Source: Octopus vulgaris
Lineage: Eukaryota
Direction of reading: 5' to 3'
DNA: 64,000 bases
Assembly (NCBI GenBank): GCA_951406725.2
Contig: OX597830.1
Location: forward strand, 24,862,001 to 24,926,000
The notes below the pieces were generated by a model. That model had not been told where the DNA came from and made no database searches. It saw only the letters and a list, made by a program, of their open reading frames with translations. Both the position numbers and the translations under genes were made by a program. Each line of letters opens with the position of its first letter. Position 1 is the first letter of the stretch. Below, piece by piece: positions 2,113 to 63,332 of this stretch.

Positions 2113-2234
2113 AAAGCCATGGTGTGACTCAGAGAAATTTCCTGTCACTATCATTACGAGAGCAATTGAAGAGAATCATTGTGGATACAGCTAAAGAATG
2201 GCCAACTTATTTCTGCAGGCTCTACCCTGCAGCG
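2113..2234 (+). CDS. MYO15: MYO15 exon (window exon 1): SHGVTQRNFLSLSLREQLKRIIVDTAKEWPTYFCRLYPAA
   Basis: tttcag acceptor, gcg|gtatgt donor; W.xYF.RL.P motif of Myo15. Confidence 0.85.
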
Positions 2235-5200
2235 GTATGTACAACCAACTAAATGCTGTTATACTGAAGATGTTTTCACAAAGAATAGAGATATATTTTA
2301 AAAATTCTAATAAGTTAACAATGTTATTGTAAATCAGTGGTTTTCAACCAGTGTCTATATGGCCCTTGGTTGTCTATATGGCATTGGAGGCCCATAAGAT
2401 ATTTTGTTCTTAAACTTTATCTCCAATAAATTGGTTATATTTCTATAATACATAAAATGATAAAAAAAAACACTTTTTTATACAGTTCCTAGTAATATTT
2501 AATCATAAAAATATAATAGAATTTTTAGACACCAAATATTTATGAGGGTAAAAAAAAATAAAGGTAAAGCAACCATCTCAAATTACACTGATTCATAAGG
2601 GCTGGTTTTCTGGTTTCATGGCATAAATATTCCCCACCTGGATAGGATGGCAGTGTATCCCAGGGTTGCTCAATTTTGCCAGCTGAGTGGACTGGAGCAA
2701 CGTGAAATGAAGTGTTTTGCTCAAGAACACAACACATTGCCCGGTCAAGATTGTGGTTTCGATTCCTTGAATCCTGTGCATTTCAAAAGAAATATAAATA
2801 ATAAAAACATTATGAGGAACATCAAACTCACTGCAGATTGAGACAATAGCAAAAATTAAATTTAAAAAATATATTTAAAAAACATTAAACTAATAACTAT
2901 ACTTCCTTCATTTTTTTAGTGCCCTAGTAGCTATGCAAGTGTGAAGTACATTGGAGTGAGTCACAGTGGAGTTTACATGGTGTCTCGAGAACAGTCATTC
3001 CTAGATGACCAGCTGAGTGTTGTTGAAGCCTTTAAGTAAGTAATTTTTTAAAAACTCATTATATTTATATAAAAAGATAATTTATTGATTGGAAACTGAA
3101 GATAACATTTATGGATCACAACGTCTTGCTTTCATATTTAATTTTTATACAGGATATATGAGATTAGCCAATATATATTTCTTTACTACCCACAAGGGGC
3201 TAAACACAGAGGGGACAAACAAGGACAGACAAACAGATTAAGTCGATTATATCGACCCCAGTGCATAACTGGTACTTAATTTATTGACCCTGAAAGGATG
3301 AAAGGCAAAGTCGACCTCAGTGGAATTTGAACTCAGAATGTAACGGCAGACGAAATACGGCTACGCATTTCACCTGGTGTGCTAATGCTTCTGCCAGCTC
3401 GCCGCCTTAGCCAATATAGTAAATCTCACACATCCAGCTGGGTACAAACCTGAATCACAGTGGGGCAGGGGACTAAAGACATTCACCATATTAAGAAACT
3501 GTAAAGGGGGTCAAACTAGTTGTGGGGGCTCCATCAAAAGCCTTAATCAATTCTATGAGATGGATTTAATGTTGTGTCTTGATTATTTGTAGGTTTGAAG
3601 ATATTGTGGAAGTTGTGCTTCGTTCCAATAACATTGTTCAGTTGACATTGCGTCAGAAAGGCATTCTCCTTTATACCAAATGGGTAGGTGTTGTTTTTTC
3701 AATTTCCCCTCCTGCTTATTGTGCAGTGCTTCTATGATATATGTCCCTTTTTGATAACAACTCATCTAAGATTACATTTGTTTCTATGATACAAAACTTC
3801 TTAACTAAATTTGTCTTTATTTGAATAATAAATCTATGTAACCCACTTCTTTTGCAATGTTCCAAAATGTAGATAAATAATGGCAAAGTTATTTTACTAA
3901 TTTGTTAAAAAATTCTTGATTATCTTCCAAATGAATTCAAAATAAAAAAAAAAAGGAAAACAGGCAATGTATTTCAAAAGAAATATGGTAATGAAAGAGT
4001 TAATTAAAATCAATGTGTTAATTAAGTTGCAATGATGTAATGATAGTCAATTATTAATTTTCTAACAATAATTAGTTTTATTGATAACCTTATTTCTCAT
4101 AACCACCAAGTATTGCTTCTGTTAGGTCATGTTGCTAATGCTTTGTTTAATTCTGAATCTGTGCAGTCTCGTTGCTAACACTACAGTGTTACTATTGCCA
4201 AAATAAACTCAGTTGACATGACATCATGTTTCTGGCATCTACATCAATATTCGCTTGACTTGGTGGTGAACATGGTTATCCTCCACCCTACTCTTCATCA
4301 AGCTCTGATCAAGACAGGCCTGTGTTTAAAAACAACCTCACCATAATCAACCCGCCTCTTCATATACTATTTCGGCTATTATGTCATCTCATCTCTTTTT
4401 AAGATCTGAGAGAAACTCAGCTGCTATTTCTAGCAGATCTATCAACTAGGTAGATGCTTTGTTGATGTATTTCCAACCCATACACTTAACATAAATAAAT
4501 TACCCACACCATTTTATTGTTAAACTTACTGGTATTGAATGTCACACTGGTCTTTTGAAATGATACTAATATTACACACTGTTAATTCCGCTGTCATACA
4601 CTTTTTATTGTTAATTGGTATTTAACCATGGAATAGTGGCCATGCTGGAGCACGATCATCAATGGCTTAGTCAGTCATATCAATCCCAGTATTTACATCA
4701 GTCTGGTATTTAGTTTATTAATCTGTGCTTGTTGGATAACTAAATTAGCTTTTCGACACAAAACCAGTAAACTCCGTCGTAAACACACACACACACACAT
4801 AAACTTATTTATGTAAGAATCTATTCAGCAAAGTTCCAAACAGCAGCTTTAGAATCACAAAGTCAGTTATTTTACTAATTTGTTGCAAATTCTTGATAAT
4901 CTTCCAAATGAATTAAAACACACACACACACACACACGTGGGTGTGAGTGTATTCGTTTACTTGTTTCAGTCATTTGACTGTGGCCATGCTGGAGTACCA
5001 CCTTTAGACAAGCAAATTGACTGCAAAACTTATTCTTTGTAAGCCTAGTACTTATTCTATCAGTCTCTTTTGCTGAACCGCTAAGTTACAGGGACATAAA
5101 CACACCAGCATCGGTTGTCAAGCAGACACACAAACATACATATATATATATATCACGTGAACACGTGACCGACCAGTCCATCAGATGTAGTTACACATCG

Positions 5201-5270
5201 CTGGTCACAATGCGTTCGCATTGTTTTTTTAGCCTTCGAATGACGCCACCCCGCTGGCTAAGCGAGCAGG

Positions 5271-5308
<38 letters not shown>

Positions 5309-8300
5309 ATAGGATTAGCTCGTATACGAGTAGGTATATATTTGTAAAAATTGAAGTTCGAAAATGCTGCTGTATTATACAATTTTTAATTTTTATATAT
5401 ACATTATAACATGTTTCAGTTCCTGAAATGAACCTTATCAAAAAAAGTTATATATAAAAAAAAAGACAGCTCATGCCGTCAAACACAAGAAATTCATTTA
5501 TAATACACAACGGAGTCAGACATCTTAGAGTTCATGTATAGTTGATATATAGTTCATGTATAGTTGATATATAGTTTGAAGTATATGTTCAAAGTGTTCG
5601 ATGCAGTGGCCCACGGTGGCGATACGTATTCAATACAAAAAACAGATCAAAGTGGTGGAAAGCGGTCAATACAGAAGATTGATGTTTCCGATTGGTATGT
5701 GTTGATTAATGTCCTAAGGACACATACCAACACATACCAAGAAGGACTCACGAACAAGGAGTATGAATACATCACTAACTTCAAATGCAAATCGAGTTTG
5801 TTCTATGGTATCCCTAAGGTACACAAAAGCCAAACCATTAGAGAAACGTGCAAAACATCCACCGACACACTCATCAAAATCCCTTCACCAAATGATCTTA
5901 AACTAAGACCGATAATAGCAGGGCCAGCATGTGAAACTCACCGCCTCAGCAATTTCTTAGACACACTTCTTAAACCTTTCCTAAAACACATCAAAAGCTA
6001 CGTAAGAGACGATATAGATATGCTCAACCACCTCCCTAAAACAGTCAATGAGAAAACCCTTCTAGTATCATTCGACGTAGTTAATCTTTATTCTAACATC
6101 CCTCACAACCTAGGAATAGAAGCGATCACCTTCTGGCTGAATAACTACCCCTTTGAACTCCCAACTCGCATAAACAAAGACCTTATAATAGAAGGACTTA
6201 GATTCATTTTAGAGAACAATTATTTTATTTTTGACAATGATTTCTACAGGCAAAGATCGGGAACAGCGATGGGCACGCATACTGCACCATCTTTTGCCAA
6301 CCTAGTGATGGGATACCTCGAGAAAATACTATACCGGATGACACTCGACAAATATGGAAACACCTTCGCCACCTATATCCATAACAACTGGAAAAGATAC
6401 CTCGATGACTGTTTCATCATCTGGGACAAAGGTATAGAGAAACTTGAGGAATTTAAAATACTATTAAATGGAATAAATGACAATATACAATTCACGATGG
6501 ACCACAACGAAAAAGAATTACCATTTTTAGACATCCTCATTAAGAAAACCGGCAACAAAATAGAGACAGATATCTACTATAAACCGACAGACTCTAAACA
6601 GTACCTACCCTTTGATTCATGCCACCCACGACACACTAGAATGAATGTCCCTTTTTGTTTAGCTAGAAGGATTTGCACCATAATATCAGACACAAACACC
6701 CGACACACACGTCTCCAGGAACTTAGAACCACACTCACAAATAGAAACTATCCACAGCCCCTAATAGACAGTGCAATCCAACGGGTACTTAAATTAAGTA
6801 TAGAAGACCTGAGACAAACAAAACCAAAAAAGAAAGAACAATTAAAAACCCTTCCCTACATCTCTACACACAACCCACTCAACAATGAGGCCTTCAACAC
6901 CATACTACAAAGCACAGCCCTACTAAAGGGAGACCCAAAGATGAACCGGATCCTCGAAACACACACCATCATTAAAAGTAAACGGCAACCAAAATCCTTG
7001 AAAAGGATTTTAACCCAAGCTACACTGCACTCAACATCAACCACAAAACCAGCAGTTAGAAAATGTGGAAGGCCCAACTGCGGAATCTGTGTCATCTTGA
7101 AAGAAGGATCAGAATTTATACTGGAACAAGGCCACCAGTTCACCATTAGAACAAACTTCACCTGCGCATCAGAAAACTTAATTTACGTCATAACATGTGC
7201 AGGCTGCAATAGGCAGTATATAGGCCATACAAAAAATAGCTTACATAACAGGATGGCGGTGCATAAATCACAAATTAGAAACCCTGATTACCGCAAAATA
7301 CCGGTCAGCAGACACATAGATAGATGTGCTGGAAATGTAAATCCGAAATTTACAACTAACCTGCTCTATAAATTCAGTGACAACGCAACCTTCACACAAC
7401 GCCAAAATAAAGAACTATATTTCATAAAAAAATTTAGACCAAGTTTAAACACCCTGGGCCAAGAATACTAAAACAAAAGATAAGTCCTCCGAAAAGGAGA
7501 AACAAAATTCCACCACAGCCGCTACTTTAAACAGACACTCGCTCTGATGGAAATATGCCTTAGTAAAAAAGGAAAAAAATTCTTTTGTGCAAATCTGACC
7601 CTGATACATACGATACAGCTAAGGGTCAGACCCGATTCTGATTGGTCAACAAGTTGATGACGTCTAGCTCTGTTAGAATGGACAGGATACAAACAGGGGA
7701 CAGTCATTAGTCAGAATATTGATGACGTCCTTTTCTGCTTGACTAGTCACCTAACAAGTACAGACAGGGGGCAGATCTAATGTAGCTATAAGTCATGATT
7801 GGGCAGAATCTGGATGACGTCCCATTCTGCTTGACTGATCAAAACAGGAAACAAACAAGAGGAAGTTATAATGCAGCGATTGGTCAAAATAATGATGACG
7901 TCCCGTTCTGCTTGACTAAAGCCACCTAATGAAAGGATTGGTCAAAACGTTGATGACATCATGCTACACTGGATTGTCCACCTAACAAGCATTATAAAAC
8001 CGAGCACTTCACAAAACCCACTAGAACCACCCAGCGAACATCCACCATGGGTCATCACAATTGCTTAAGGTAAAAATGAATTCCTCGCTCTTTCGGAAAC
8101 ATCAATCTTCTGTATTGACCGCTTTCCACCACTTTGATCTGTTTTTTGTATTGAATACGTATCGCCACCATAGGCCACTGCATCGAACACTTTGAACATA
8201 TACTTCAAACTATATATCAACTATACAATGAACTCTAAGATGTCTGACTCCGTTGTGTATTATAAATGAATTTCTTGTGTTTGACGGCATGAGCTGTCTT

Positions 8301-8605
8301 TTTTTTTATATATAACTTTTTTTGATAAGGTTCATTTCAGGAACTGAAACATGTTATAATGTATATATAAAAATTAAAAATTGTATAATACAGCAGCATT
8401 TTAGAACTTCATTTTTTACAAATATATATATATATATATATATATACGATGGGTTTCTTTCAGTTTCCATCTACCAAATCCTATCACAAGGCTTTGGTCA
8501 GCCCAAGGCTATAGTAGAAAACACTTGCCCAAGCTGCCACACGGTGAGACTGAACCCAGAAACATGTGGTTAGTAAGCAAGCTACTTACCACACAGCCAC
8601 TCCAG

Positions 8606-8654
<49 letters not shown>

Positions 8655-11600
8655 ATTATCTTTTACTTGCTTCAGTCATTGGACAGCAGCCATGCTGGAG
8701 CACTGCCTTGAAGAATTTTAATCAAATGAATCAACCCCAGTACATTTTTTAAAACCTGATTCTTATTCTATCAGTCTCTTTTGCTGAACCACTAAGTTAC
8801 AGGGCTGTAAATGCACCAACATTGATTGTCAAGTGATGGTAGGGACAAACACAGATACATACATACAAACATATATATATGACAGACATCTTTCAGTTTC
8901 CGTCTACCAAATCCACTCACAAGGCTTTGGTCAGCCCAAGGCTATAGTAGAAGACACTAGCTGAAGCTGCCATGCAATGGGAATGAACCCAGAACGATAT
9001 GGTTGGGAAGCAAGCATCTTACCACACTGCCTCATCATTATCTTAATGCCCCCTTTTCCATGCTTGCATGGGTCAGATGGAATTTACTGAAGCAGATTCT
9101 TTGTTTGTTTCCAAAGATGGTAATATTTCTCCATGGCCTGACATGTTTCCAGAGAAGCTTAGGTTTAATAACGAATCCATTTATGAAACTACCAAACATA
9201 TATCCAATAACAGTGCTAACCTCAAGTGATGTCTCGCATCCTCTCTTTGTTGTCTTTAATAAACAAACACCTTTCATTTCATGTTTCGATATTTCAGGAT
9301 AAAGAATTAAAAACAATGATTGATGACTACAGCCATGAAAATGAAGGGGTAAGTGTAAGCTCCTGGAACATTCTTTCTTTGAGTGGACATGCTTAAATGA
9401 AGGTGACAGTCATGTGTGTCTCCCATGCTGTATGTGTTTTAGTTTCAACTCATGGTCTGGCAAGAACGCCTCCGATATTCATGTAACTTTTCCCAGAATA
9501 GAGGACTGTCACAGCCTCTTTACATGGCCTGTTTCTCACTTTTAACCCTTTCATTACTAACCCGGCTGAACCCACCTCTGGCTCTGTAGTACAAATATCT
9601 GGTTTTCAAAAGTTCTGAATTAAAATCTTCCACCAAACCTCAGTCACAATTTATGTTCCTAAAACTAGCTTAATGATAACTAAGTTATTTTACTAAATTC
9701 TTTCATCATCATCATTTAATGTCTGTTGTCCATGCTGGTATGGGTTGGACAGTTTGACTGGGCTGGCATGCTGGAAGGCTGCACCAGACTCCAGTCTGAT
9801 TTGGCATGGTTTTCTACAGCTGGATGCCCTTCCTAACACCAACCACTCTGAGAGTGTAATGGGTGCTTTTACATGCCACCGGCACAGATACCATTTTGCG
9901 TGACACTGGAGTGCTTTTATGTACCACCAGCACAGGTGCAAAATTTCTATGACACTTTGTTATATTGAAAATTGATTGAAAGAAACACGGAGCATCTCAA
10001 CAGAAATATAGTAACAAAAGGGTTAAGAAATGGTTTTTATTGTGAAGGTTTTTATTGTAATAAATGTTATATGGAAACTTCAACTCCAGCGTGTATTTTT
10101 GATTATTTCAAAGATAATCATGAAGGCGTGTAGATTAGTTGTTAGGGGTGTTCAGCTCATGATCGTAAGATTGTGAGTTCAATTTTCAGTGGTACATTGT
10201 GTCATTGTGCAAGGCACTTTATTTTGCATTGCTCCAGTCCACTCAGCTGGCAAAAGTGAGTTGAACCTGTATTTCAAAAAAGTCGGCCTTGTCACACTGA
10301 ATCTACCTGAGAACTACGTTAAGGCTTCACATGTCTGTGGAGCGCTCAGCCACTTGCACTTTAATTTCACAGGCTGGCTGTTCCATTGATCAGTTCAAAT
10401 TGAACACTTGTCGTTGTAGCTGACAGAATGATAGTACCAAAAATAACTGAATATGTGACCCATTTTACAATCCATAGTATATGTATACATTAGTCCTGTA
10501 TCTATAAATATATATATTTGTGCTAGTATGTGTGTATGATTTGTACATACATGTCTTTGATCGTGTGCATAATGTTTCTTCATGTTAAACACAGGATGAT
10601 AACACTTAAAGACTTGTCCCCACTGTTTTTATTTTCTTTTCAGGGCAGCAAGTTTGCCTTTGCTTTAAAAGACTACATTGTTGATCAACCGACCCTGCTG
10701 TCCTTTAAAAGTAAAGATGTCATCAAATTGATGGATGCTGGTGAGCCACTTGATGAAGGTTAGTTTTCAATGTTAACATCAATCAAGGGGATGGGTTATC
10801 ATAATCAGTAAATATTTCATGAATCTCTCTCCAATAAATCATTCTGCCCAAAACACCAGGCTTGTCTTTTTCCTCATAGCAAGATAATTTATTTCACTTT
10901 ACAAACGTTTTACACCTACTATTTTATCAATACAAATCATCACTAGATTCAGTGCATTACACACACACACATATATATCATCATCATCATCATCATCGTT
11001 TAACATCCGCTTTCCATGCTAGCATGGTTTGGATTATTTGACTGAGGACTGGCGAATCAGATGGCTGCACCAGACTCCAATCTGATCTGGCAGAGTTTCT
11101 ACAGCTGGATGCCTTTCCTAACGCCAATCACTCCGAGAGTGTAGTGGATGCTTTTATGTGCCTCCGGCACGAGGGCCAGTTAGGCGGTACTGGCAATGGC
11201 CACGCTCAAATGGTATTTTTTACATGCCATCTGCACAGTAGCCTGTCCAACGGCACTGGCAACGACTTCGCTCAAATATACACACACACATATAGATTCA
11301 AAATAACAAAAGAACATTCTGTTCCCCATTCAACTCCAGATTTTTTTCAACTACCTCATATATATATATAAAAGGTATGAATTTTCTGTAAAGATATCAT
11401 TCCTGATAATTTATCTGAAATGAGATGAAAGCGCTAAATAAATAGTTACCCAAAATTCTGACTAACTCATTTTTCTTAATATATAAAATCTGTACACCAC
11501 TTCAAACAATGTACATACACATGCGTATATGTGTGGTATATGTATATGATATCTATATATAACGTACTGATCCATGACAGAAAATTCAACAAAAAAAAGT

Positions 11601-30600: not shown

Positions 30601-33600
30601 AATCAACAAAAACCACTTGAACTTCAACATCCATTGAATTTTTTTGCCTCCCCTCTTATATAAAATATCAATCTTTAGGGAACAGCACTTAATTTTCCAA
30701 CAGGTCTAATCTGTGGGGCCCTGCAGTGCCAACTAAAAACAAGAATATCAATTAAAGAACTATTAAAACAAAATCTGGTTTTTCTGTTGAAGTAGTTACT
30801 AATCTCCAACCAGACATACACAATCAGAAACACATACACAAGCACTTAAATATTGTATAAAAAAAGAAAACACTTCAGTTTTCCACTGCTCAGCTGAGTT
30901 TTATTGTGTAGTTTATGTAAAAGTTAATACATTTAAAACATTTTTTCATTATTATAAAATAAAAGATCTAAAATATCAAACATAACAACCCTTAAGATTT
31001 TCTGATTAGAAACTACGTCTATAAGCATATGCATTATATAACTGTGTAAGTGTTCATGCATGTATGTATAATTGTGTATGAATGTTCATGTATGGGACGT
31101 GAATAAAAGCAAAGCAGACACAGCGAAACAGTTAAGTTGATTTCATCATCATCTTTTAATGTCTATTTTTCATACTGGCAAAGTTTATACATATAAAAAT
31201 CTTGTGCTGAATATTGCTAGATAACATTTTAGGTGAGCATCTTTTGCAGTAGCTTTGAGTCGTTGAGAGCTATGTCAACCTTTAACAGACAAACTATAGT
31301 CATATTTCAAAAGGCCCGACCATGTCACACAGACTGTCATGCTAAGTATGCTTAAGGACTACATCAAGGGTAGAAGTATCTATGGGATACTCAACTAGTC
31401 AACACTTAATATAAGGACTGAACCTTGTAATTTAACCCTTTAGCATTCAAGTTGCCCATATGCAACCCAAATATTCTACCTGTTTGATGTTCAAACTGGC
31501 CAAAAGCAGACTCTCATGGACACCCTACAATGTCATTCTAAATATTGGGTCATCTCATAAATAATGCAAATTTTTTATACTTCTTTTATTTTTCATAATT
31601 AAGATAAACTAAGTTCTTTTTTAACCTAAAGTATACTCTCCTTCATTTTCTACAATGATCTTCCGTCTATTTGGTAGACTTGCAAGACCCCTCTTCCAAA
31701 ATTCACTTGTCTGTGACAAAAAATACTCTTTCAATACTGTTCTGACCTTGTCTGCAGAATTCACATCTTTTCCATCCAAATGATTTTGAAGACTGCAGAA
31801 TAAATGATAATCAGGTGGGACAATGTCCAGCGAGTATGGTGGGTGGAGTATCATTTCCCATTCAAACTGCTCCAGCATTTGGAATGTCATCCTCACTGTA
31901 TGTGGCTGAGCATTATCCTGATGGAGGAACACTTTTTGTCTCAAAGCCAAAGATGGTTGTCTTTCTTCTAGTGCTGACTTGAATGACTGGCAGAATGACC
32001 AAATCCAAGCTTTTCTGCAAATTCCCCAACAGTTACAATGGGATTTTGTGCCACCAGGGTTTGCAGGATGTCCTCATTGAGCTCTACTGATCTTCCAGGA
32101 TGAGGCTCGTCTTCTAGGCTGTAGTTTCCATCTCAGAATTTCTGGAACACCATTGACATTGGCTTATTGTCTGATTCCCATATATTGCATTAATATTCCT
32201 CACACTTTCCATTGCATTGTTGCCTTTATTGAACTCATAAAGCAAAATATGCCAAATATTCTCCTTTGTCACTTCCATTATAGCTTTGAAAAAATAACTG
32301 TTAAATTTGAACTGCACTCTTCAAAACTTGCACTAAGAATAAGCACAAGTTAAAATTACTACCTGCTTTTATAGCAAATTGATACTGGCAGTTTATTCCA
32401 TCCCTACTCCAACTTTTAGTTCATGCAATTGAAAAAAACTGCTTTATTTATGGGATGACCCAATATAAACAATTACATCATTGAAATTTCAAAGCTATAA
32501 GACAATGCATGGTTAATTCAAAACAATGTGAATAAATAAGCATTGCATTTGACAGTAATCTGAATGTATAAGGGATAAAGAACCCAGTCATGGTGATGAC
32601 GCCAACCAAGAATTACATTAAGGGTACAACAGTCTGAGGAATAATTGCCTACTTACAATACAATTTAAATAGCTCCACTAATCAAACAGGAATAGTTATC
32701 ATCAACAATGATAATCCATTTCATCTTCATCATTATCCATTTTACATTCATCTTTTCCATGCTAGCATGGGTTGAATGAGACATGCTGAAGCAGTATTCT
32801 ATGGATGGATACTCTTCCTGATATCACCCTGTTGTTTTATCAAATAAAATACTTTATTCCTATCAAACTACAGCCATAGGTTTTGTTTGTGGGAGACATA
32901 AATGTCACCACTGAAGCAGCGTCAAGTAAAAATGTGTGAAAACAAATTGACACACACAGGTGCATATATACATATAGACATGTGTACATAAATACACGGA
33001 TATATACACTTTGTTGAGTGGGCATTTTTGTTTTGTGAATTACTTGGCAATGTCACTATTAGTGCTAGTGCCAAGAAAAAGACAGCCAGTATATTTTGTA
33101 AAATAGCTGGCATTAGGAAGGGCATCCAGCTTTAGAAACAGTACCAAAGTAAGCATTGGCACTTGACAGGATCTGATGAGCAAAAGGATCCTGTCAAACG
33201 CTCATCAGATCCTGTCAAACTGTCCACCTTATACCAGCATGGAAGACACATTAAATAACAATGTTGATACATGAATACACACACACACAACAGGCTTCCA
33301 TGCAGTTTCCATCTATCACTCATAAAGCACTAATCAGCCTGTAGTAGAAGACAGTGACATATTGTGGGATCAAACCCACATGGCTGTGAAGCCAATTTCT
33401 TAACTTCACAGACACAACTGCACCATTTGTTTACATATTCTGATATGAAGAGTAGAAGTTTTGAAAAAAAAAAAGAAGGCTAACAATGTCACTTGCAGTG
33501 ACATTGTTAGCCTTCTTTTGCTGTTTACATTGCACTGCTATCTAGAGACATGCATAGGAAGTAGTGCAGAAAAATTTAGCAAAAATAATAAAAGACAAAA

Positions 33601-34027: not shown

Positions 34028-36987
34028 TCCTAATATCTAAAGTCAACAAACACTGACTGAGAAAGGGACTCAGTACACGATGTAGTCAAATATTTATTTA
34101 TTTGCAAATGGAAAAGAGGGAATGAGGGAGGAGAGCTTGATCATGACCTTCAAGTTTCACTAAAGATTCTTATCAACCAAACCACTTGATACGCTTCTTC
34201 AACATATACATATACACACATGTGCATGTACATACTTTAAATAAAGTAATCCAGTAGCCTATTATTCGGGAGCTTTCCTGACAAGGTACCAGTTCCTCAA
34301 ACAATAAAGCCTATTCCAGTCAAGAAACCAGCAAATGTTGGGAAATCTCCAGAGTAACTTGGTCCAAGGCTCAACCTGAAACCTGAATAAACTTTTACAC
34401 TCTATGTTATGCTATTGAGTACTTCTTTTGTCATTCATTATAAGCTCCAGATATATATAAATACATAGGTGGGAGCTGGATATGCTCAGTATAGAAAACA
34501 TGTAGTAGTGCTCAAACTATTCCCAAATTCTTCATGCAGGACTGGGTCCATGGCAAGAAGAATGCCTATAAGAGAAATCCAAGTTAAGCTGATGTGGAGG
34601 TAGAAACACAAAATTTCTTAACTTGACAGCTGTTTCAGGAAGCATGGATTTCCTGAAACATTTGTCAAGTTGATAAATTTTATATTCTGCATATTTTATG
34701 TTCTATGTAAATATATTCATATGTATGTGTGCATGTGTGAAGATATATGCATCAATGTGCATGTATGTATATATATATATATATATATATATTTTAAGCA
34801 TAATTCTGTTTATCTTCATTACTACCTCTGTAGATATGTACAAGCACACACACACAAATATATAAGGTTACAGTGTTTTAACTTATTTCTCTGTTTTGTC
34901 TCAATTATGCAGATCTGCCACAAGTACCCTGAGTTAAGAGATGAAGTGTACTGTCAACTGTGTAAGCAGACAACAAATAACAAAAGTCCTAAAGCGTGAG
35001 TAAACATTGTAATAATTGGTTTGTTTTGTGTTTGCCTATGGTATGTGTGTTTATGAAACTTAAGCTGGGTGTGGGTAATGCAAATACCATGTTAGAGAAA
35101 GGGTTAAATATCCTGTGTATACCTGTTGCCCTATGTTTGTCTAAGCTATAACATTCCAGAAATTACAGATACTGTCAATTATAAGTGGCAGTTATGGAAA
35201 CAGAATCTCAGAATACTACTCTTAAAGCTATTCCCTTCACAGTTGGGCAGATATCACATGTCTTTTTATTTCTTTTATCTTTTACTTGTTTCAGTCATTA
35301 GACTATGCCCATGCTGGGGCCACAGTTGAATTTCTTTTTGTTGAATGAAGGCGCAGATGTGGCTGTGTGGTAAGAAGCTTGCTTCCCTACCACATGATTT
35401 CCAGTTCAGTCCCACTGCATGGCACTATGGGCAAGTGTCTTTTACTCGAGCCTTAGACCGACTAAAGACTTGTGAGTGGATGGAACCTCTTTAATCAAAG
35501 GTTTATTCAGTCTGAGTTGAAATGAAGATAGATACACACACGAAACATGACTGCCACTTACAATCAAAGTTGACTCCATATCAGAATGTACCATTATTTC
35601 CATTCAATGGGTATTTGTCCTCATCTTGTTTGTTGTTAATACAGCATTTCAGCTGATATACCCTCCAGCCATTATCAGGTAACTTGGGGAAATTTCAAAC
35701 CTGGGTTCTCATTCCTAAGGTATTTTTCGATATTACTATTGTTATTATTATTATTACTATTACTATTATTATTATTATTATTATGAGCATATGGCATAGT
35801 GGTTAAGAATGCGGGCTACTGACCCTAAGATTCTGAGTTCGATTCCGAGCAGTGACCTTAATAATAATAATAATAACAACATCGAAAAGTACCTTAGGAA
35901 TGAGAACCCAGGTTCAAAATTTCCCCAAGACACCTTGGTCAACTAAATAGAAATAGCAACCAATTATCTCTTGGTTCACAGCCTACCATCTTATAAAAAG
36001 GGAAAGCAACACTGTAAAGGGAAGAATACAGTTTTCTGTCTGTCTCGTTATATTCGCATTAAACTAAATTGTATAATTTCAAAAAGTTTAATTTCAGGAG
36101 AGAAAAAGAGAGAAAAGCAAATCACTTTCATTACTATTTTTCAGGAAAAGCTTGATCCGTGCCTGGAGATTTTTCGCATTATTTGCAGCCTACAATGACT
36201 GCTCTGGTACACTGAAACCCTACCTTCTGAAGTATTTGACAATTGCTGCCACAGATACATCAGATCCAAATAACATTTGCAGTGAGTATAGAAAGTGATA
36301 TTAAACGTTCTTGTTAACTTCATTTTTGTATCTGGTTTGCAAAATTCTTTTTGTGAATTGGTGTGTTGAAACAAATTTCAGTGTATCTAAGGAAAATCAT
36401 AAAGCAAATATTAACTCACACTGGTGCCACGTAAAAATCATCCAGTCCATACTGTAAAGTGATTGGGGTTTGGAAGGGCATCCAGCTATAAAAACCATAC
36501 CAGAACAGACACAAAAGTCTGGTGCTGTCTTCTGCCAGGCTAGCTCCTGTCAAACCATCCAACCCATGCCCGCATGGAAGGTGGACATTAAACAATGATG
36601 AGGACATGCACTGGTTTTATGATTAGCCAATTGGTTAAATATCCAAGTAACTAATCAATTCTTTGTTTAACTTGATTAAAAAATAAACCAAATAGTTAGT
36701 TGGATATTTAACCAGTTTATTAATTATAAAGGAGTGGAATTGAACCAGTGCATGTGTTAATGTTTGCATATTGTCTCTCCATAGACACACTAAATGCTTT
36801 TGATAACTTATTGAAAGATCATTTTTAACCTAAGGTGGAAATACAGCACCCATAGTCTTTTTCCAGAGTCTCAGTTGACTGGTGGGAAGAAAAGATGAAG
36901 TTATCTTTTGTCTGAAATCTCCACCAGAGGCATCCAGAAATGAGATAGTAACCACTTCCATCACCAACATATATGTGTATATATCCA

Positions 36988-43483: not shown

Positions 43484-46400
43484 TTAAGAATTACACTTCA
43501 CAACCATGTGGTTTTGGGTTCAACCCCTTAGTCCCAGTGTGCAGCACCACTGGCAAATGTCATCTGTTACATTATAACCATCGGTCAACCAAAGCCTTGG
43601 GAGTAGATTTGATATGTGTGTGTGTGCATGGACATATGCTCCTTTGCCTTGACATCACACACTAACTGTAAACAAATATGCCCATCATACAAATGGTGTC
43701 ATTCATTAGCAATCTACCATGAAAACATGTCCCCTTCTTGTGCTGTTCACATCCAAACAACTGAGGGGAAATGTTACTTTGCTTGGAAACAGGTGAGGCT
43801 GGACAACAGGAAAAGCATTCAGTTGTAGAAAATCTGCCTCAATGAATTTCATCCGACCCAATCAAGCATGGAAAAACTGGACATGAAAAAAATAATGATG
43901 ATGTCACATATTTCTCTATTCTCTTTCTTTCAAAGTTACATTCAATATTTCATAAACCTGTGTTTCAGATTCTGCTAGATCAAATCCTCGCTACCATAGG
44001 ATTTCACGCCATGAATATTTCTTTGACCTTACTGCTGATCTACAAAAGAAGCCAACACCCTATGATGTCATCTTCAAAAGAGATGTCTGGATGTTCCCAA
44101 TTCAACCACGAACCAATGAGGTCTACATAGATCTCATGTTTGCTCAAGTAAGATGTCCACATCTTTGATTTCATGATGAATTTGTTGATGTTTGCATTTG
44201 TTTGCTTCATTAATTTTATCTTTTGCTTGTTTGAATCATTAGACTGCAGCCATGCTGGGACACCAGCTTGAAGAATTTTTTGTCAAACTAATCAATGGCA
44301 ATACTTTTTTTTTTCAAAGCCTGGTTTTTATTCTACCAGTTTAATACCAGGTAGAATAAATACCAGTCTCTTTTGCTGAACTGCTAAGTTATGGGTACAT
44401 AAAACAAACAGACACACACACACACATATATATATATTGGGTTGGCAACTAAGTTCCTGCCGCTTTTTTTAATTAAAATTTTTGTAAAGGCTTAATAAAA
44501 AATAACAACTAATTAATCAATGTATTCACCCTTGTTGTTTACAACTTCTTTCCAACAGTCAACAAGCTTTTCAATACCTTGTTGGTAGAAATCACCCAAT
44601 TTTGACTCAAAAAATTGATCCCCAACCAAGCTCTCAATTCTGCATCAGTATTGAACGAAACTCTGCGCAAAGCATTTGAAAGAGATCGAAAAAGGTAGAA
44701 ATCCATTGGTGCCAAATCAGAATAGTACAGCAGGTGTGGCGGCACTTCCCAGCCATGCATTTGAATGGCTTCCTTGGTCATATTGGCGATATAAGGGTGG
44801 GCGTTGTTGTGCAGCAGCAGAACTCCATGCTGACGATTAGGTCTTTTTTCTTGAATAGCAGTGTTGAGTCATTCCATCTATTGAACATAGAGTTCCACGT
44901 TGACCGTTTGGTTCTGTTCAAACAATTCATAATGGATAATACCTTCCCAGTCCTACCATACACACAACATCGTTTTACATGGATGAAGATCTTGTTTCAC
45001 ACACAGTGTCACTTGTCTACCAGGGCTAAGCCATTCCTTAAGCTGCTTCATGTTGATGTACAGGCACCATTTTTCGTCACCAGTAATGTTTCGGTAAAGA
45101 AATTGTTGCTTGTGTCCAATGAGTTGAACGGTGACGAGCAAGCAAATCAGCAGAGATTGTGGCTCGTTGATTTTTGTTGTTGTCACTTAAAGCATACGAA
45201 ACCCATGCTCCATACTTCTGAACCTTTCCCATCGAGTGAAGATGCTTCTCTATAGCAGTGTGGGAGCATTCCATTTTCTCTGCCAGTTCCCTTGTCGTTT
45301 AACAAGAATTTGCATGCAAAAGTTGGTTCAATTGCTCTTCATTGAACTCAACTGGACAGCCAGAATGAGGTGCATCTTTGAGGTCAAAATTTCCATTTTT
45401 GAACTTGGCATACCAATCATGAATGGTTCTTTCAGCAATGGCACCTTCTCCATACACAGCACAAATGTCGTGAGCAGCTTTTGCAGCCTTAGAACCTTGG
45501 TTAAAAGCAAAAAAGAAGGAGGTGTCAAAAATGCTCATTTTTCTTAACTTGACATTCCATTTTAATGATCTGAAAATAAACTAAAATTAACTAGCAAAAA
45601 ACAAAATAGATTCCAAAATGATTAAAAAATAGAATTCTCGAAAAAAATAGATTCCAAAATTTAAAAATGCAATAAATTCCAAAATTAAAAAAACGGCAGG
45701 AACTCAGTTGCCAACCCAATATATATATACAACAGGCTTCTTTTAGTTTCCATCTAATATATCGATCTAATCGACTGCCCCCCTCCCCTAAAATTTTAGG
45801 CCTTGTGCCTAGAGTAGAAAAGAATATTTAAGGTGCTGAGCTGGCAGAAATGTTAGCATGCCAGACAAAATGCTTAGAGGTATTTCGTTTGTCTTTACAT
45901 TCTGAATTCAAATTCAGCAAGAATTGTGAGAATCTTGTTCTGTATCAGAATCACAAGAGTGAGCTTTTGACAGAGAAGATTTTCACCAAGATGTTGTGAC
46001 TGGTACATTTAATGTAGCAGTCATGTGCTAGGGTTGAAATGTATTTCTATGAAATATCCTAGATGTGAAAATGAGTTTCAACACTATTGACTGATTTGTT
46101 ACGAAAAGCAGTCAAATCTTCTTCAGATCACAACTTAGTATCTTAAGAAAAAAAAAATGAAAAATGATATAATGCAGCCTTGGATGCCCCCCTGAAAGAT
46201 GGGATCAGCATGGCTGGAAATGCCTTTGATCATAGGTCTGCTTGATCTGAGTCAACCTGGGGCTATACAACAAGAAGGTTGCACGAGGTAAATCCTGATG
46301 CAATAGTATTCCATGCTCTTGTATTGTGACACAACAAACATGTACACATGGAAGTGCTCCAGTTTGGTCACAAACAGATGGCTGAAACCAATAAGTTGAT

Positions 46401-60787: not shown

Positions 60788-61242
60788 TGATTGAATAAAA
60801 TAAGTAAACTGATATAAGTACTGGATAATTATGTTCAACAAAAACCTTTGAAATTGTTGCCCCTTTTATGGTCACAATCCAATGACAAAACCTAATAAAA
60901 AAAAATGCAAATATTCAAATCTATAAATCATTCCACAGGTCTTAACATGAAAACAAATGTCACATACAAAGTTAAAATAACTATATAAAGGATTTAGTGA
61001 AAATATAAAACCTGTTACTTTGGAATTTGAACACAATTTAGCATTATAATCATTTAATGTCCACACTCCTTGCTGGCTTGGGTTGGACAGTTTGATCAGG
61101 GCTGGTAAGTTAAAGGGCTGCAACAAACTCTACTCTGATTTGGCATGGTTTCTACAGCTGGATGCTCTTCTTAACACCAACCACTCCAAGAGTGTAATGG
61201 GTGCTTTTATGTGCTTTTTACAGGACACCGGCAATAACTACA

Positions 61243-61923
61243 ATTCACGGTTGCCATTTACATGGTAACAACCATGACTATGACGCATGGGTGCTATTTA
61301 TATGACACCGGCAGCAACCCCAACTATGATTCACGGATGCCATTTACATGACACAGGCTATGACCACAACGATTCATGGGTGCCCTTTACATGGTACCAG
61401 CAATAATCACAACTACGATTCACAGGTGCCATGTAAATGGCACCTTCAATGATCTTGACTAAGATTCATGAGTGTCATTTACATGGTACCAGCAATGAGC
61501 ACAACAACAATTCATGGGTGCCATTTATATGGCACCATCAACAACCATGACTACGATTCATGGGTACCATTTACATGGTACCAGCAATGACCACAACTAC
61601 AATTCACGGGTGCCATTTATATGGCACCATCAACAACCATGACTACGATTCATGGGTGCCATTTACATGGTACCAGCAATGACCACAACTATAATTCACG
61701 GGTGCCATTTATATGGCACCATCAACACCCATGACTACGATTCATGGGTGCCATTTACATGGTACCAGCAATGACCACAACTACAATTCATGGGTGCCAT
61801 TTATATGGCACCATCAACACCCATGACTACGATTCATGGGTGCCATTTATGTGGCTCTGACAATGGCCATGATTACTATTTCATGGGTGCTATTTACATG
61901 GCACTTTCAATAACCACAGCTAC
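61243..61923. repeat. Minisatellite of about 15 x 46 bp with an A/B dimer (92-bp) higher-order structure, inside an RTE 3' UTR
   Basis: Unit A attcatgggtgccatttatatggcaccatcaacaaccatgactacg alternates with unit B attcatgggtgccatttacatggtaccagcaatgaccacaactaca. Confidence 0.9.
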
Positions 61924-63332
61924 AATTTCACTTGGCTTGACAAGTCTTCTCACACAAATGTTAAAGTGTATCCAAATTCCAACGCAGATATAAAATGAAA
62001 AACCAATTATAAGCTTGTCTTTTACAACTTAATTTTGCAACTCAGTTCAGTATAAATAAACCCATTAACTAACAACTTTAATTTCTATTCAAAGCTGAAA
62101 ATATGGAAGTTTCTAACTTTGCACAAATTCTTCTCGCTACACACACTAAATGAAATAAAGGCTCCACAATTTTTCATTGGATCAAACCTCTCATCCCTCA
62201 ATGACAGATAAAATGGGCAACAGTATTACTGAACTGGGATTAGTTGAAGACAAATCTTCGCTAAACTACTGAATAGTAAATATACATATAAAGCTCTTGT
62301 GACACAACCTAAAAAACGGGAGCTTAAGTGAGACACTTCACCCTAGTTTTGTCATTTGATACTCAGTAGTTCTTCATTCTACAGAAAACTGTCTGAGCAA
62401 GGTTAAAGATAGGATATCTTTTAGGGTGTAACCCAGTGAGAAAATGTCAAAGAAAGAATATGAGGGGATGCTGAAAAGCTCCTGGCTTTAAGGGTATTCT
62501 GAAAGGCCTGGATGGAGGCCCAACCTTCCAAATCCTTCTAAAGCTAAGAAAAACTGAAGGACCACTGCAATAAGTTTGTGAATCTGAAAGGGGAATATGT
62601 TGAATAAAATCATAATTAACTGTATTTGTATTTTCTTTTACAAATATATACAAATACAGATATATATACAGTAATTTATAATGCCTAGAAGTTAAGAGTT
62701 TACAACAAACAACCAAAGGTCAAGAGTTCAAATCCAAACTTCAAATGGAAACAAAATAAAAAAATAATTTTTGTAGTCAGTCTGGTCACTAAAGACTTCA
62801 GCCTTATGTAGGATACATTAAAATTATATGATCGTAGTGATCATAGCATGTCAGAGATAAAATCATTGACACACTCAGCTTACTTCAGTTCCATTAACTT
62901 AATTGGAACACCATGAATGTTCAACAACTTTGTGTTTTGCTGCCTCTAAAAATTCTATATAAATGCTTTTATATCTGCTTCATTCTATGCCTGGGGCATG
63001 ATGTGGACAAGACTTCTTGAGGCAGTATTGAACAGCTGAATTTTGTTTCTAATACCAACCTTTATTTGTTTTTCAAGTAAGGTACTTTATTCCACATTTT
63101 ATGTTAAACTATTAAGCTACTTGACGTTTTGTTTCCTTCAGACATGAACAAACACCAGTGCTATCTATCTATCTATACATCCATCCAACATAAACAGATT
63201 GAGTCAATGTACAGTTTCTATCTGACAAACTTTACTAACAAGACATTGATCAACCTAAGGCTGTAGTAGACAGAGCAAGAGACACTTGCCCAAGGTACAA
63301 TGTAGAAGGATCAAACCTGAAACCGCAAGACT

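What the first reader, a model, noticed from the sequence alone, without database searches (positions are those of the whole stretch)
7641..8075. Five rigidly spaced CCAAT-box/CRE modules, TATA box, Kozak ATG and splice donor in the PLE terminus
Seen: ATTGG-N12-TGACGTC recurs five times (7641, 7706, 7798, 7879, 7937) with exactly 12 nt spacing, although the spacer and inter-module sequences diverge. They are followed by TATAAAA (7993), ccaccATGg (8047) and AG|GTAAAA (8070). Established: ATTGG is the reverse NF-Y box, TGACGTC is a CRE/ATF-CREB site, and PLEs are transcribed from the pLTR of an upstream tandem copy and can retain an intron. Inference: this is a composite NF-Y/bZIP, possibly cAMP- or stress-responsive, promoter with a first mini-exon (MGHHNCLR). 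Motifs conserved over diverged spacers suggest selection.
Basis: partly seen in the sequence, partly recalled or inferred. Interest (0 to 1): 0.7.

Follow-up and report, generated by a model that had tools for sequence, protein, structure and literature searches.

The report
Swapped upstream promoter of Penelope retrotransposon
This stretch is the likely promoter of a young Penelope-type jumping gene: five duplicated transcription-factor modules and a TATA box lie just upstream of where many of the family's copies begin, and the module was likely picked up back-to-front from a distantly related Penelope family.

Summary
The motifs are real, but only 3 of 5 modules are exact; the five are tandem duplicates whose spacers are no more diverged than their flanks. 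They lie in the terminal repeat (pLTR) of a young two-ORF Penelope-like element (at least 531 end copies). Best evidence for a promoter is genomic: 12 of 67 mapped 5' ends fall 27-46 nt after the TATA box (1.1 expected), none at 0-26, placing a likely start near 8020. The ATTGG-12-TGACGT unit persists across diverged relatives (80 of 85 gaps are 12 nt), numbers 5-6 in this family and 11 in a sister copy, is absent from two sister families, and occurs inverted, 74-82% identical, in a different ORF2 clade: likely promoter capture. Unlike Drosophila Penelope's internal TATA-less promoter, this one lies upstream of the start, like an LTR U3. The ATG mini-exon is a short uORF lost in close relatives; splicing, factor binding and cAMP response are unshown. 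The window's copy is truncated and points into a myosin intron. A sequence look-up found no earlier scan note on this DNA; other Penelope families of this genome were noted with tRNA-type promoters.

The parts
5274..5691 (-). Inverted 5' arm: reverse copy of the pLTR 3' part (8093-8428) plus the terminal tail
   Evidence: (I1, I6: 99% arms)
5713..7471 (+). 5'-truncated ORF2 (reverse transcriptase, Cys linker, GIY-YIG endonuclease)
   Evidence: family homology starts at 5713; intact copies give 765 aa from the first Met
7641..7664 (+). Module 1, exact ATTGG-N12-TGACGTC
7706..7729 (+). Module 2, ATTAG-N12-TGACGTC (NF-Y box degenerate family-wide)
7798..7821 (+). Module 3, exact
7879..7902 (+). 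Module 4, exact
7937..7961 (+). Module 5, ATTGG-N12-TGACATCA (full palindromic CRE in most copies)
7993..7999 (+). TATA box
   Evidence: invariant in 46 copies; kept in sister subfamilies
8018..8039 (+). Likely transcription start region (Inr-like CACT at 8019-8022); 5' ends of copies pile up at +27 to +46 from the TATA T
8047..8073 (+). 8-codon uORF MGHHNCLR-stop, fixed in this subfamily only
8068..8075 (+). Predicted splice donor AG|GTAAAA of a 5'-leader intron
   Evidence: AG|GTAA kept in sister subfamilies; use unshown
8322..8355 (+). Predicted minimal hammerhead ribozyme core, U3-A8 variant, palindromic helix III
   Evidence: variant described in PMC4209133
8328..8396 (+). Candidate splice acceptors (AG ending 8329, 8340, 8393, 8396)
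   Evidence: none proven
8397..8446 (+). Element 3' end at about 8428 followed by (TA)n
9298..9348 (+). Next exon of the host unconventional myosin gene (context; element is in sense in its intron)
   Evidence: MyTH4 exon; weak SH3 match to KIAA1783 and class VII myosin

Best explanation
This is the likely RNA polymerase II promoter of a young Penelope-like retrotransposon family: tandem-duplicated CCAAT/CRE modules predicted to bind NF-Y and a bZIP factor sit upstream of a TATA box, and transcription likely starts about 28 nt after the TATA box. Shown: the segment is the element's pLTR; it stands upstream of ORF1 only in partial-tandem copies; copy 5' ends pile up at +27 to +46; module number varies; homologous modules occur inverted in another ORF2 clade. 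Inferred: because the modules lie upstream of the start they are not in the RNA's 5' end, so a new copy gets a promoter only when a second, truncated 3' end is laid down in front of it (U3-like). The leader would carry an intron from 8070 that holds seven upstream ATGs and most or all of the hammerhead; spliced RNA would be translated, unspliced RNA is what gets copied. The cassette was likely captured in inverted orientation from an older Penelope lineage and then amplified. The window's copy is 5'-truncated, so its promoter could only make short pLTR RNA or run into the myosin intron.
For: 5' ends: first 90 listed of 531 copies, 2 mis-mapped and 1 twin arm dropped, 20 ran past 1.5 kb, 67 mapped; 12 at +25..+46 vs 1.14 expected (P=3.6e-9), 0 at 0..+26; 0 of 20,000 simulations reached 12 in any 22-nt window. 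TATA acts about 30 bp upstream of the start (PMC2715254, passage). 19 pLTR-ORF1 junction copies genome-wide; 12 of the 17 of this subfamily keep TATA or more. Anchored on TGACGT alone, 80 of 85 upstream ATTGG lie at gap 12; 21 spacer classes have mid-spacer identity 0.35, flanks 0.33-0.34. Copies picked by ORF2-end homology show the same gap (12 of 16 and 9 of 10 pairs). In human data bZIP and bHLH sites lie 10-12 bp 5' of CCAAT, the same side as here (PMC7793273, PMC3730095). Capture: sister family D's array is 74-82% identical over 56-144 nt, on the opposite strand, to the 3' UTR of family E, whose ORF2 is about 50% identical and lies in another clade (100/99); each clade has a module-less sister.
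Against: No capped-RNA, chromatin or binding data. Contigs of 4 possibly-RNA runs showed no joint or loose end at the donor and covered upstream modules as well (contigs show presence only and intronic copies dominate). Among 46 copies of this family the modules are not clearly better conserved than neighbours (p=0.09 non-CpG, 0.55 all sites; p=0.007 only when TATA, Kozak and donor are pooled in), and two subfamilies carry a mutated CRE. All gap-12 modules examined may share one ancestor, so they are not independent origins; the families were found through a pattern that fixed both motifs; the 21 classes were chosen to differ in the spacer. None of 17 ORF1-bearing copies begins at the inferred start, and 5 begin inside module 5 (-59 to -42), which the model does not explain directly. 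Human distance conventions differ between papers, so the match to 10-12 bp is approximate.
Confidence: 0.75

Rival explanations
1. The 5'-end cluster marks a reverse-transcriptase drop-off or microhomology site, not a start; the element is transcribed by read-through or from an internal promoter as in Drosophila Penelope, and the modules are a neutral minisatellite.
For: No RNA start data; several ends abut (TA)n so they are uncertain by a few nt; module conservation within the family is weak; ORF1-bearing copies do not start there.
Against: The cluster's upstream edge sits at the canonical TATA distance with an empty zone at 0..+26 and ends spread over non-TA positions; predicted structure is weak (-11.7 kcal/mol over 110 nt); motif and gap outlast spacer and flanks across families.
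Confidence: 0.1
2. It is a promoter, but the partner of NF-Y is not a cAMP-responsive CREB: another bZIP (ATF-type), a bHLH or TALE factor reads the site, giving constitutive or germ-line expression.
For: Only module 5 has the full TGACGTCA palindrome; several factor classes use a 10-12 bp gap to CCAAT; no data on induction.
Against: TGACGTC is kept (C at +6 in 95% of classes, A at +7 in 57%), which fits CRE better than an E-box or DECA site (motif knowledge partly recalled).
Confidence: 0.5
3. The cassette is ancestral to all these families, was inverted once in place and lost twice, rather than captured from another lineage.
For: The tree alone allows this; PLEs make inverted repeats routinely (PMC3846280).
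Against: Non-coding cassette identity D-E is 74-82%, near the 81-86% among E copies, whereas the last 600 nt of their ORF2 gave no blastn match at the same settings.
Confidence: 0.2
4. The ATG-donor segment is a coding first exon spliced to ORF1 or, in this copy, to the myosin gene.
For: Strong Kozak context, kept in 57 of 58 covering copies of this subfamily; the copy is in sense in a myosin intron.
Against: That ATG is absent at the matching place in L182, L156, L181 and L135 although TATA and donor persist; none of 8 possible AG acceptors gives an open fusion to ORF1; joining to the next host exon would stop after three more codons (frame).
Confidence: 0.05

Closest known systems
Penelope of Drosophila virilis (PMC2377424; parts 1-3 of 4 read)
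   Same: Promoter in the pLTR, needs a partial tandem, leader intron near the hammerhead (PMC4209133), 3' pLTR able to drive downstream host exons.
   Different: That promoter is internal and TATA-less; here TATA and activator modules lie upstream of the inferred start, in a variable tandem array; element has an extra ORF1.
Pen2a_Av of Adineta vaga (PMC3846280; passages)
   Same: Putative TATA about 20 bp before an Inr-like TCACT in the pLTR; inverted pLTR and tail.
   Different: Prediction from one copy, no upstream factor modules described in the passages read; Penelope/Poseidon clade, single ORF.
Chlamys-3_cRei (PMC8557442; passages)
   Same: Start site in the pLTR and an intron in the 5' leader.
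   Different: Internal promoter by H3K4me3; N-terminal endonuclease; green alga.
Mouse LINE-1 5' UTR replacement and monomer arrays (PMC3600994; abstract and passages)
   Same: Families with related ORFs carry non-homologous promoters; exchange between families; tandem monomers (cited there by title only).
   Different: L1 promoters are internal and at the 5' end; here the promoter is carried at the 3' end, upstream of the start, and was swapped in inverted orientation.
NF-Y stereo-positioned modules and NF-Y-bound LTRs (PMC3730095 section 15 and passages; PMC7793273, PMC4889920 passages)
   Same: Partner site 10-12 bp 5' of CCAAT; repeated CCAAT units in retroelement promoters (LTR12).
   Different: Human ChIP data for AP-1, E-box and ATF2/3; no binding data here; not an LTR element.
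HeT-A composite promoter (as described in PMC2377424)
   Same: [quoted passage not shown]
   Different: Telomeric non-LTR element; no pLTR, hammerhead or GIY-YIG (recalled).

Membership tests
EN+ Penelope-like element | RT plus C-terminal GIY-YIG endonuclease | tested here: met
EN+ Penelope-like element | CCHH motif in the endonuclease; DKG and GxKF motifs | tested here: met
   Read in the ORF2 translation against the definitions in PMC8557442
EN+ Penelope-like element | Partial-tandem pLTRs, inverted 5' copy, optional tail, (TA)n targets | tested here: met
EN+ Penelope-like element | Hammerhead motif in the pLTR | tested here: met
   U3-A8 core with covarying helices II and III in families A, B, C, D; cleavage not testable
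EN+ Penelope-like element | Single ORF (canonical description) | tested here: not met
   466-aa ORF1 overlaps ORF2 in the -1 frame. The Fig. 1 legend of PMC8557442 allows an ORF1 with frameshift in some PLE types; the figure itself was not visible
Neptune/Nematis clades | CX2-5CxxC linker before the endonuclease | tested here: met
   C-x4-C-x2-C in ORF2 (definition)
Neptune/Nematis clades | RT phylogenetic placement with named references | not tested
   The tree held no named reference elements
Penelope-type internal TATA-less promoter | Required elements lie downstream of the start; no TATA | tested here: not met
   TATA and modules lie upstream of the 5'-end cluster; internal elements are not excluded
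TATA-driven Pol II promoter | Start about 30 nt after TATA | tested here: met
   Indirect, from copy 5' ends
TATA-driven Pol II promoter | Capped RNA ends or open chromatin | tested here: inconclusive
   Only contigs were available; one SMART-oligo end lies at the ATG site and is likely a strand-invasion artefact
NF-Y/bZIP composite element | CCAAT box with a CRE-type site at a fixed 10-12 bp on its 5' side | tested here: met
   4 of 5 modules have CCAAT; gap 12 in 80 of 85 pairs
NF-Y/bZIP composite element | Factor binding, cooperativity, cAMP response | not testable with these tools
   Needs EMSA, ChIP or reporters
Retained spliceosomal leader intron of PLEs | Spliced RNA exists while genomic copies keep the intron | tested here: inconclusive
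   No spliced genomic copy: the 2 pattern hits were point mutants. No spliced contig in 4 runs. Acceptor not fixed

The most novel reading that the evidence does not exclude
Penelope-like elements can carry a true U3-like upstream promoter at their 3' end, trade it between distant lineages through their own inverted-repeat chemistry, and rebuild it at each cycle by a strand transfer from the RNA's 5' end onto the homologous 3' pLTR. That would explain why short solo copies stop at the start site (12 of 67 ends) while none of the 12 ORF1-bearing copies that reach it stop there, and would supply the pLTR-regeneration mechanism that PMC2377424 calls unknown.
Probability: 0.3. Interest if true: 0.72.

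Novelty: new variant of a known kind. Interest (0 to 1): 0.5.

Why it matters
Promoters have been mapped for very few Penelope-like elements, and both cases I read about are internal. An upstream NF-Y/CRE/TATA promoter makes the pseudo-LTR work like a real LTR's U3 and makes tandem formation obligatory, which gives a direct test of how pLTRs are rebuilt. Inverted capture between lineages extends promoter swapping, known from L1, to this class. Several hundred outward-facing Pol II promoters with a splice donor, such as this one in a myosin intron, could affect host genes; no such effect is shown here.

Tried and rejected
Rfam scan of 5200-8600: 11 weak matches, all below gathering score, no hammerhead hit; the hammerhead was found by hand and pattern. 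No listed run is on record as RNA: no RNA holder listed. Laying 4 possibly-RNA contig sets gave no splice joint, uninformative; no reads were laid on the window's myosin exons, so splicing from 8070 into the host gene is open. The SMART-oligo end in run X9 was rejected as a start site because it joins exactly on the genomic G run at the ATG, the signature of strand invasion (that an older oligo version ends in the same letters is recalled). The idea that the modules are degenerate hammerheads was dropped: no GAAA/helix III follows them, and a better hammerhead lies at 8322. The pattern was meant to exclude this family and did not; 85 of its 100 listed hits have gap 12 and 15 spread over other gaps (hand count; 1006 hits vs 328 control), but the hits examined were mostly PLE relatives, so a host-wide grammar is not shown. 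Motif-versus-spacer test among family copies was underpowered; private mutations fall equally on both (p=0.53). ORF1 matched no Pfam family above cut-off; the ORF1 comparison with sister families failed on a frame slip, so ORF1 homology rests on visible N-terminal likeness. Literature searches for an upstream CCAAT/CRE promoter in a PLE (octopus PLEs; CRE-CCAAT 12 bp) listed none; the library lacks most subscription papers, one search listed 12 of 272, and no supplements or figures were read.

Full report
Observation. The five sites are in the sequence. Three match ATTGG-N12-TGACGTC exactly, and none of 100 shuffles gave a match. Module 2 has ATTAG throughout the family and module 5 has a CpG change found in 3 of 46 copies. 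TATA, Kozak ATG and donor are at the stated places. The modules are tandem duplicates: spacers are 69% identical, the adjacent 3' flank 58%. Rigid spacing inside one copy therefore needs no selection.

The element. 5713-7471 encodes RT and a GIY-YIG endonuclease. 5274-5691 is an inverted copy of the 3' end with the tail. The 29 other top-scoring copies fetched are 91-95% identical over 7440-8430 and end at about 8428-8446 in (TA)n; a 25-mer near the end occurs 531 times. Longer copies have a 466-aa ORF1 overlapping a 765-aa ORF2, and 7 of the 16 stretches have a partial copy of the 3' end upstream of ORF1. So 7472-8428 is the pLTR. The RT-EN linker has the cysteine motif of Neptune/Nematis. 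The window's copy is 5'-truncated and lies in sense in an intron of an unconventional myosin gene (MyTH4 E=6.5e-12; weak SH3 match; exon frames). Earlier scan notes call the genome an octopus; I did not test that.

Is it a promoter? RNA evidence was not obtainable: no listed run is on record as RNA, four contig sets showed only unspliced cover and one likely artefactual adapter end. The genome itself is informative. I took the first 90 of 531 listed copies, chosen only by their 3' end, and mapped their 5' ends. Two were mis-mapped, one was the twin arm of another, 20 ran beyond 1.5 kb, 67 were mapped. Twelve end 27-46 nt after the first T of the TATA box against 1.14 expected from the background rate (P=3.6e-9); none ends at 0-26; 0 of 20,000 simulations reached 12 in any 22-nt window. 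The upstream edge, +27 to +31, is the usual TATA-to-start distance (PMC2715254 passage) and falls on an Inr-like sequence like the one noted for an Adineta pLTR (PMC3846280 passage). In the window this is about 8020-8024. I infer that these copies are complete reverse transcripts of RNA begun there. I took up this end-mapping after reading earlier scan notes that used the same logic on other families.

Selection on the modules. Among 46 family copies the test is weak: shared non-CpG variants hit 0 of 50 module-motif sites and 19 of 284 spacer and inter-module sites (p=0.09); with CpG sites 2 of 60 vs 20 of 304 (p=0.55); pooling TATA, Kozak and donor gives 0 of 74 vs 26 of 339 (p=0.007). Across families it is stronger. 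A genome pattern with free spacing gave gap 12 in 85 of 100 listed hits, many with unrelated spacers. Most of those examined lie in other PLE families; one old repeat had no ORF2 within 1.5 kb. In copies picked by ORF2-end homology the gap is again 12. Anchoring on TGACGT only, 80 of 85 upstream ATTGG lie at 12; 21 spacer classes show mid-spacer identity 0.35 and flank identity 0.33-0.34. Caveats: common descent, discovery through a motif pattern, and classes chosen to differ in the spacer. Distances between modules vary freely (58, 65, 92, 93 nt in this family). Module number is 5 in 21, 6 in 11 and 4 in 3 of 35 copies, and 11 in one sister copy. Human data place bZIP, bHLH and TALE sites 10-12 bp 5' of CCAAT, the side used here. 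Binding and cAMP response remain inference.

Promoter capture. Sister families with ORF2 68% (C) and 57% (B) identical have ORF1, pLTR and hammerhead but no modules. Family D (ORF2 about 90%) has a related array in the same orientation; older families E, F, G (40-51%) have it reversed, in E followed by a TATA of its own. The ORF2 tree gives (A,D)+C and B+(E,F,G), each at 100/99 or better (midpoint root, no named references, two rows under half filled). D's array is 74-82% identical to E's on the opposite strand, while their ORF2 ends gave no blastn match. The simplest reading is capture of an E-type cassette in inverted orientation, then duplication; in the A lineage many units changed from ATTCG to ATTGG. 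Direction is inferred from age only.

Mini-exon, intron, ribozyme. MGHHNCLR stops inside the donor. The ATG is kept in 57 of 58 copies of this subfamily but is missing in L182, L156, L181 and L135, which keep TATA and AG|GTAA; none of 8 AG acceptors fuses it to ORF1. It is best read as a uORF in a leader exon. The unspliced leader has 8 ATGs before ORF1; splicing to the AG pair at 8393/8396 would remove seven and the hammerhead. A U3-A8 hammerhead core lies at 8322-8355 with covarying helices in families A-D (variant in PMC4209133, parts 1-2 read). No spliced genomic copy exists by two patterns, as expected for PLE intron retention; splicing itself is unshown.

Tandem copies. Nineteen pLTR-ORF1 junctions exist. 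Of the 17 in this subfamily, 12 start at or upstream of TATA, 5 at +79 or later, none at the inferred start; 5 start within module 5 and 3 within 10 nt of the predicted ribozyme cut. This could mean strand transfer onto the 3' pLTR, or multi-unit transcripts as proposed for PAc (PMC11167929, parts 1-2 read). It is also the main result that my model does not explain directly.

Comparison and verdict. A pLTR promoter with a leader intron is known (PMC2377424, PMC8557442), but described as internal; PMC2377424 supposes upstream elements arose later. Promoter replacement is known for L1. My searches listed no upstream NF-Y/CRE promoter or inverted promoter capture in a PLE. Verdict: real, a new variant of a known kind, interest 0.5.

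Noticed in passing
L078:5834-5915; L119 and L128 equivalents: ORF1 overlaps ORF2 in the -1 frame with a T-run ending in TTA (slippery-heptamer type, rule recalled) at the same place in families A, B and C; family C's ORF2 has no Met there, suggesting ribosomal frameshifting.
   Followed up: partly
L182:3972-4906: A sister-subfamily copy carries 11 modules in a higher-order repeat and lacks the Kozak ATG.
   Followed up: partly
L161, L155, L182 upstream of the first module: Families D and A2 keep a TATA-like run at the position of family E's TATA, now facing antisense into ORF2; lost in the window's subfamily. Possible bidirectional promoter.
   Followed up: no
L227, L228, L230, L235, L236: 5 of 17 tandem copies begin inside module 5 (-59 to -42 from TATA); unexplained.
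   Followed up: partly
L225, L234, L240: 3 of 17 tandem copies begin within 10 nt of the predicted hammerhead cut; AT-rich boundaries make this uncertain.
   Followed up: partly
L085-L114, L127-L132: Family B has a pLTR of about 2.3 kb that includes roughly 1.5 kb of microsatellite-like sequence shared between copies, then TATA-like site, donor and hammerhead.
   Followed up: no
L213-L224: An old repeat (69-81% identity) with three similar modules and an opposite-strand TATA, no ORF2 within 1.5 kb; parent element unknown.
   Followed up: partly
window 2113-10760 and 34850-34996: Exons of an unconventional myosin gene (class XV-like by a weak SH3 match; the KIAA1783 = MYO15B name link is recalled) on the + strand around the insertion.
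   Followed up: partly
P0030, P0041, P0055, P0075 and others: ORF2 relatives are deposited as proteins of bacterial symbionts of molluscs, likely host contamination of those assemblies.
   Followed up: no
window 61236-61926: 46-nt tandem array, about 14 units.
   Followed up: no
window 31621-32073 and 44680-45255: Fragments that read like mariner-type transposase (first on the - strand, second antisense; recalled likeness).
   Followed up: no
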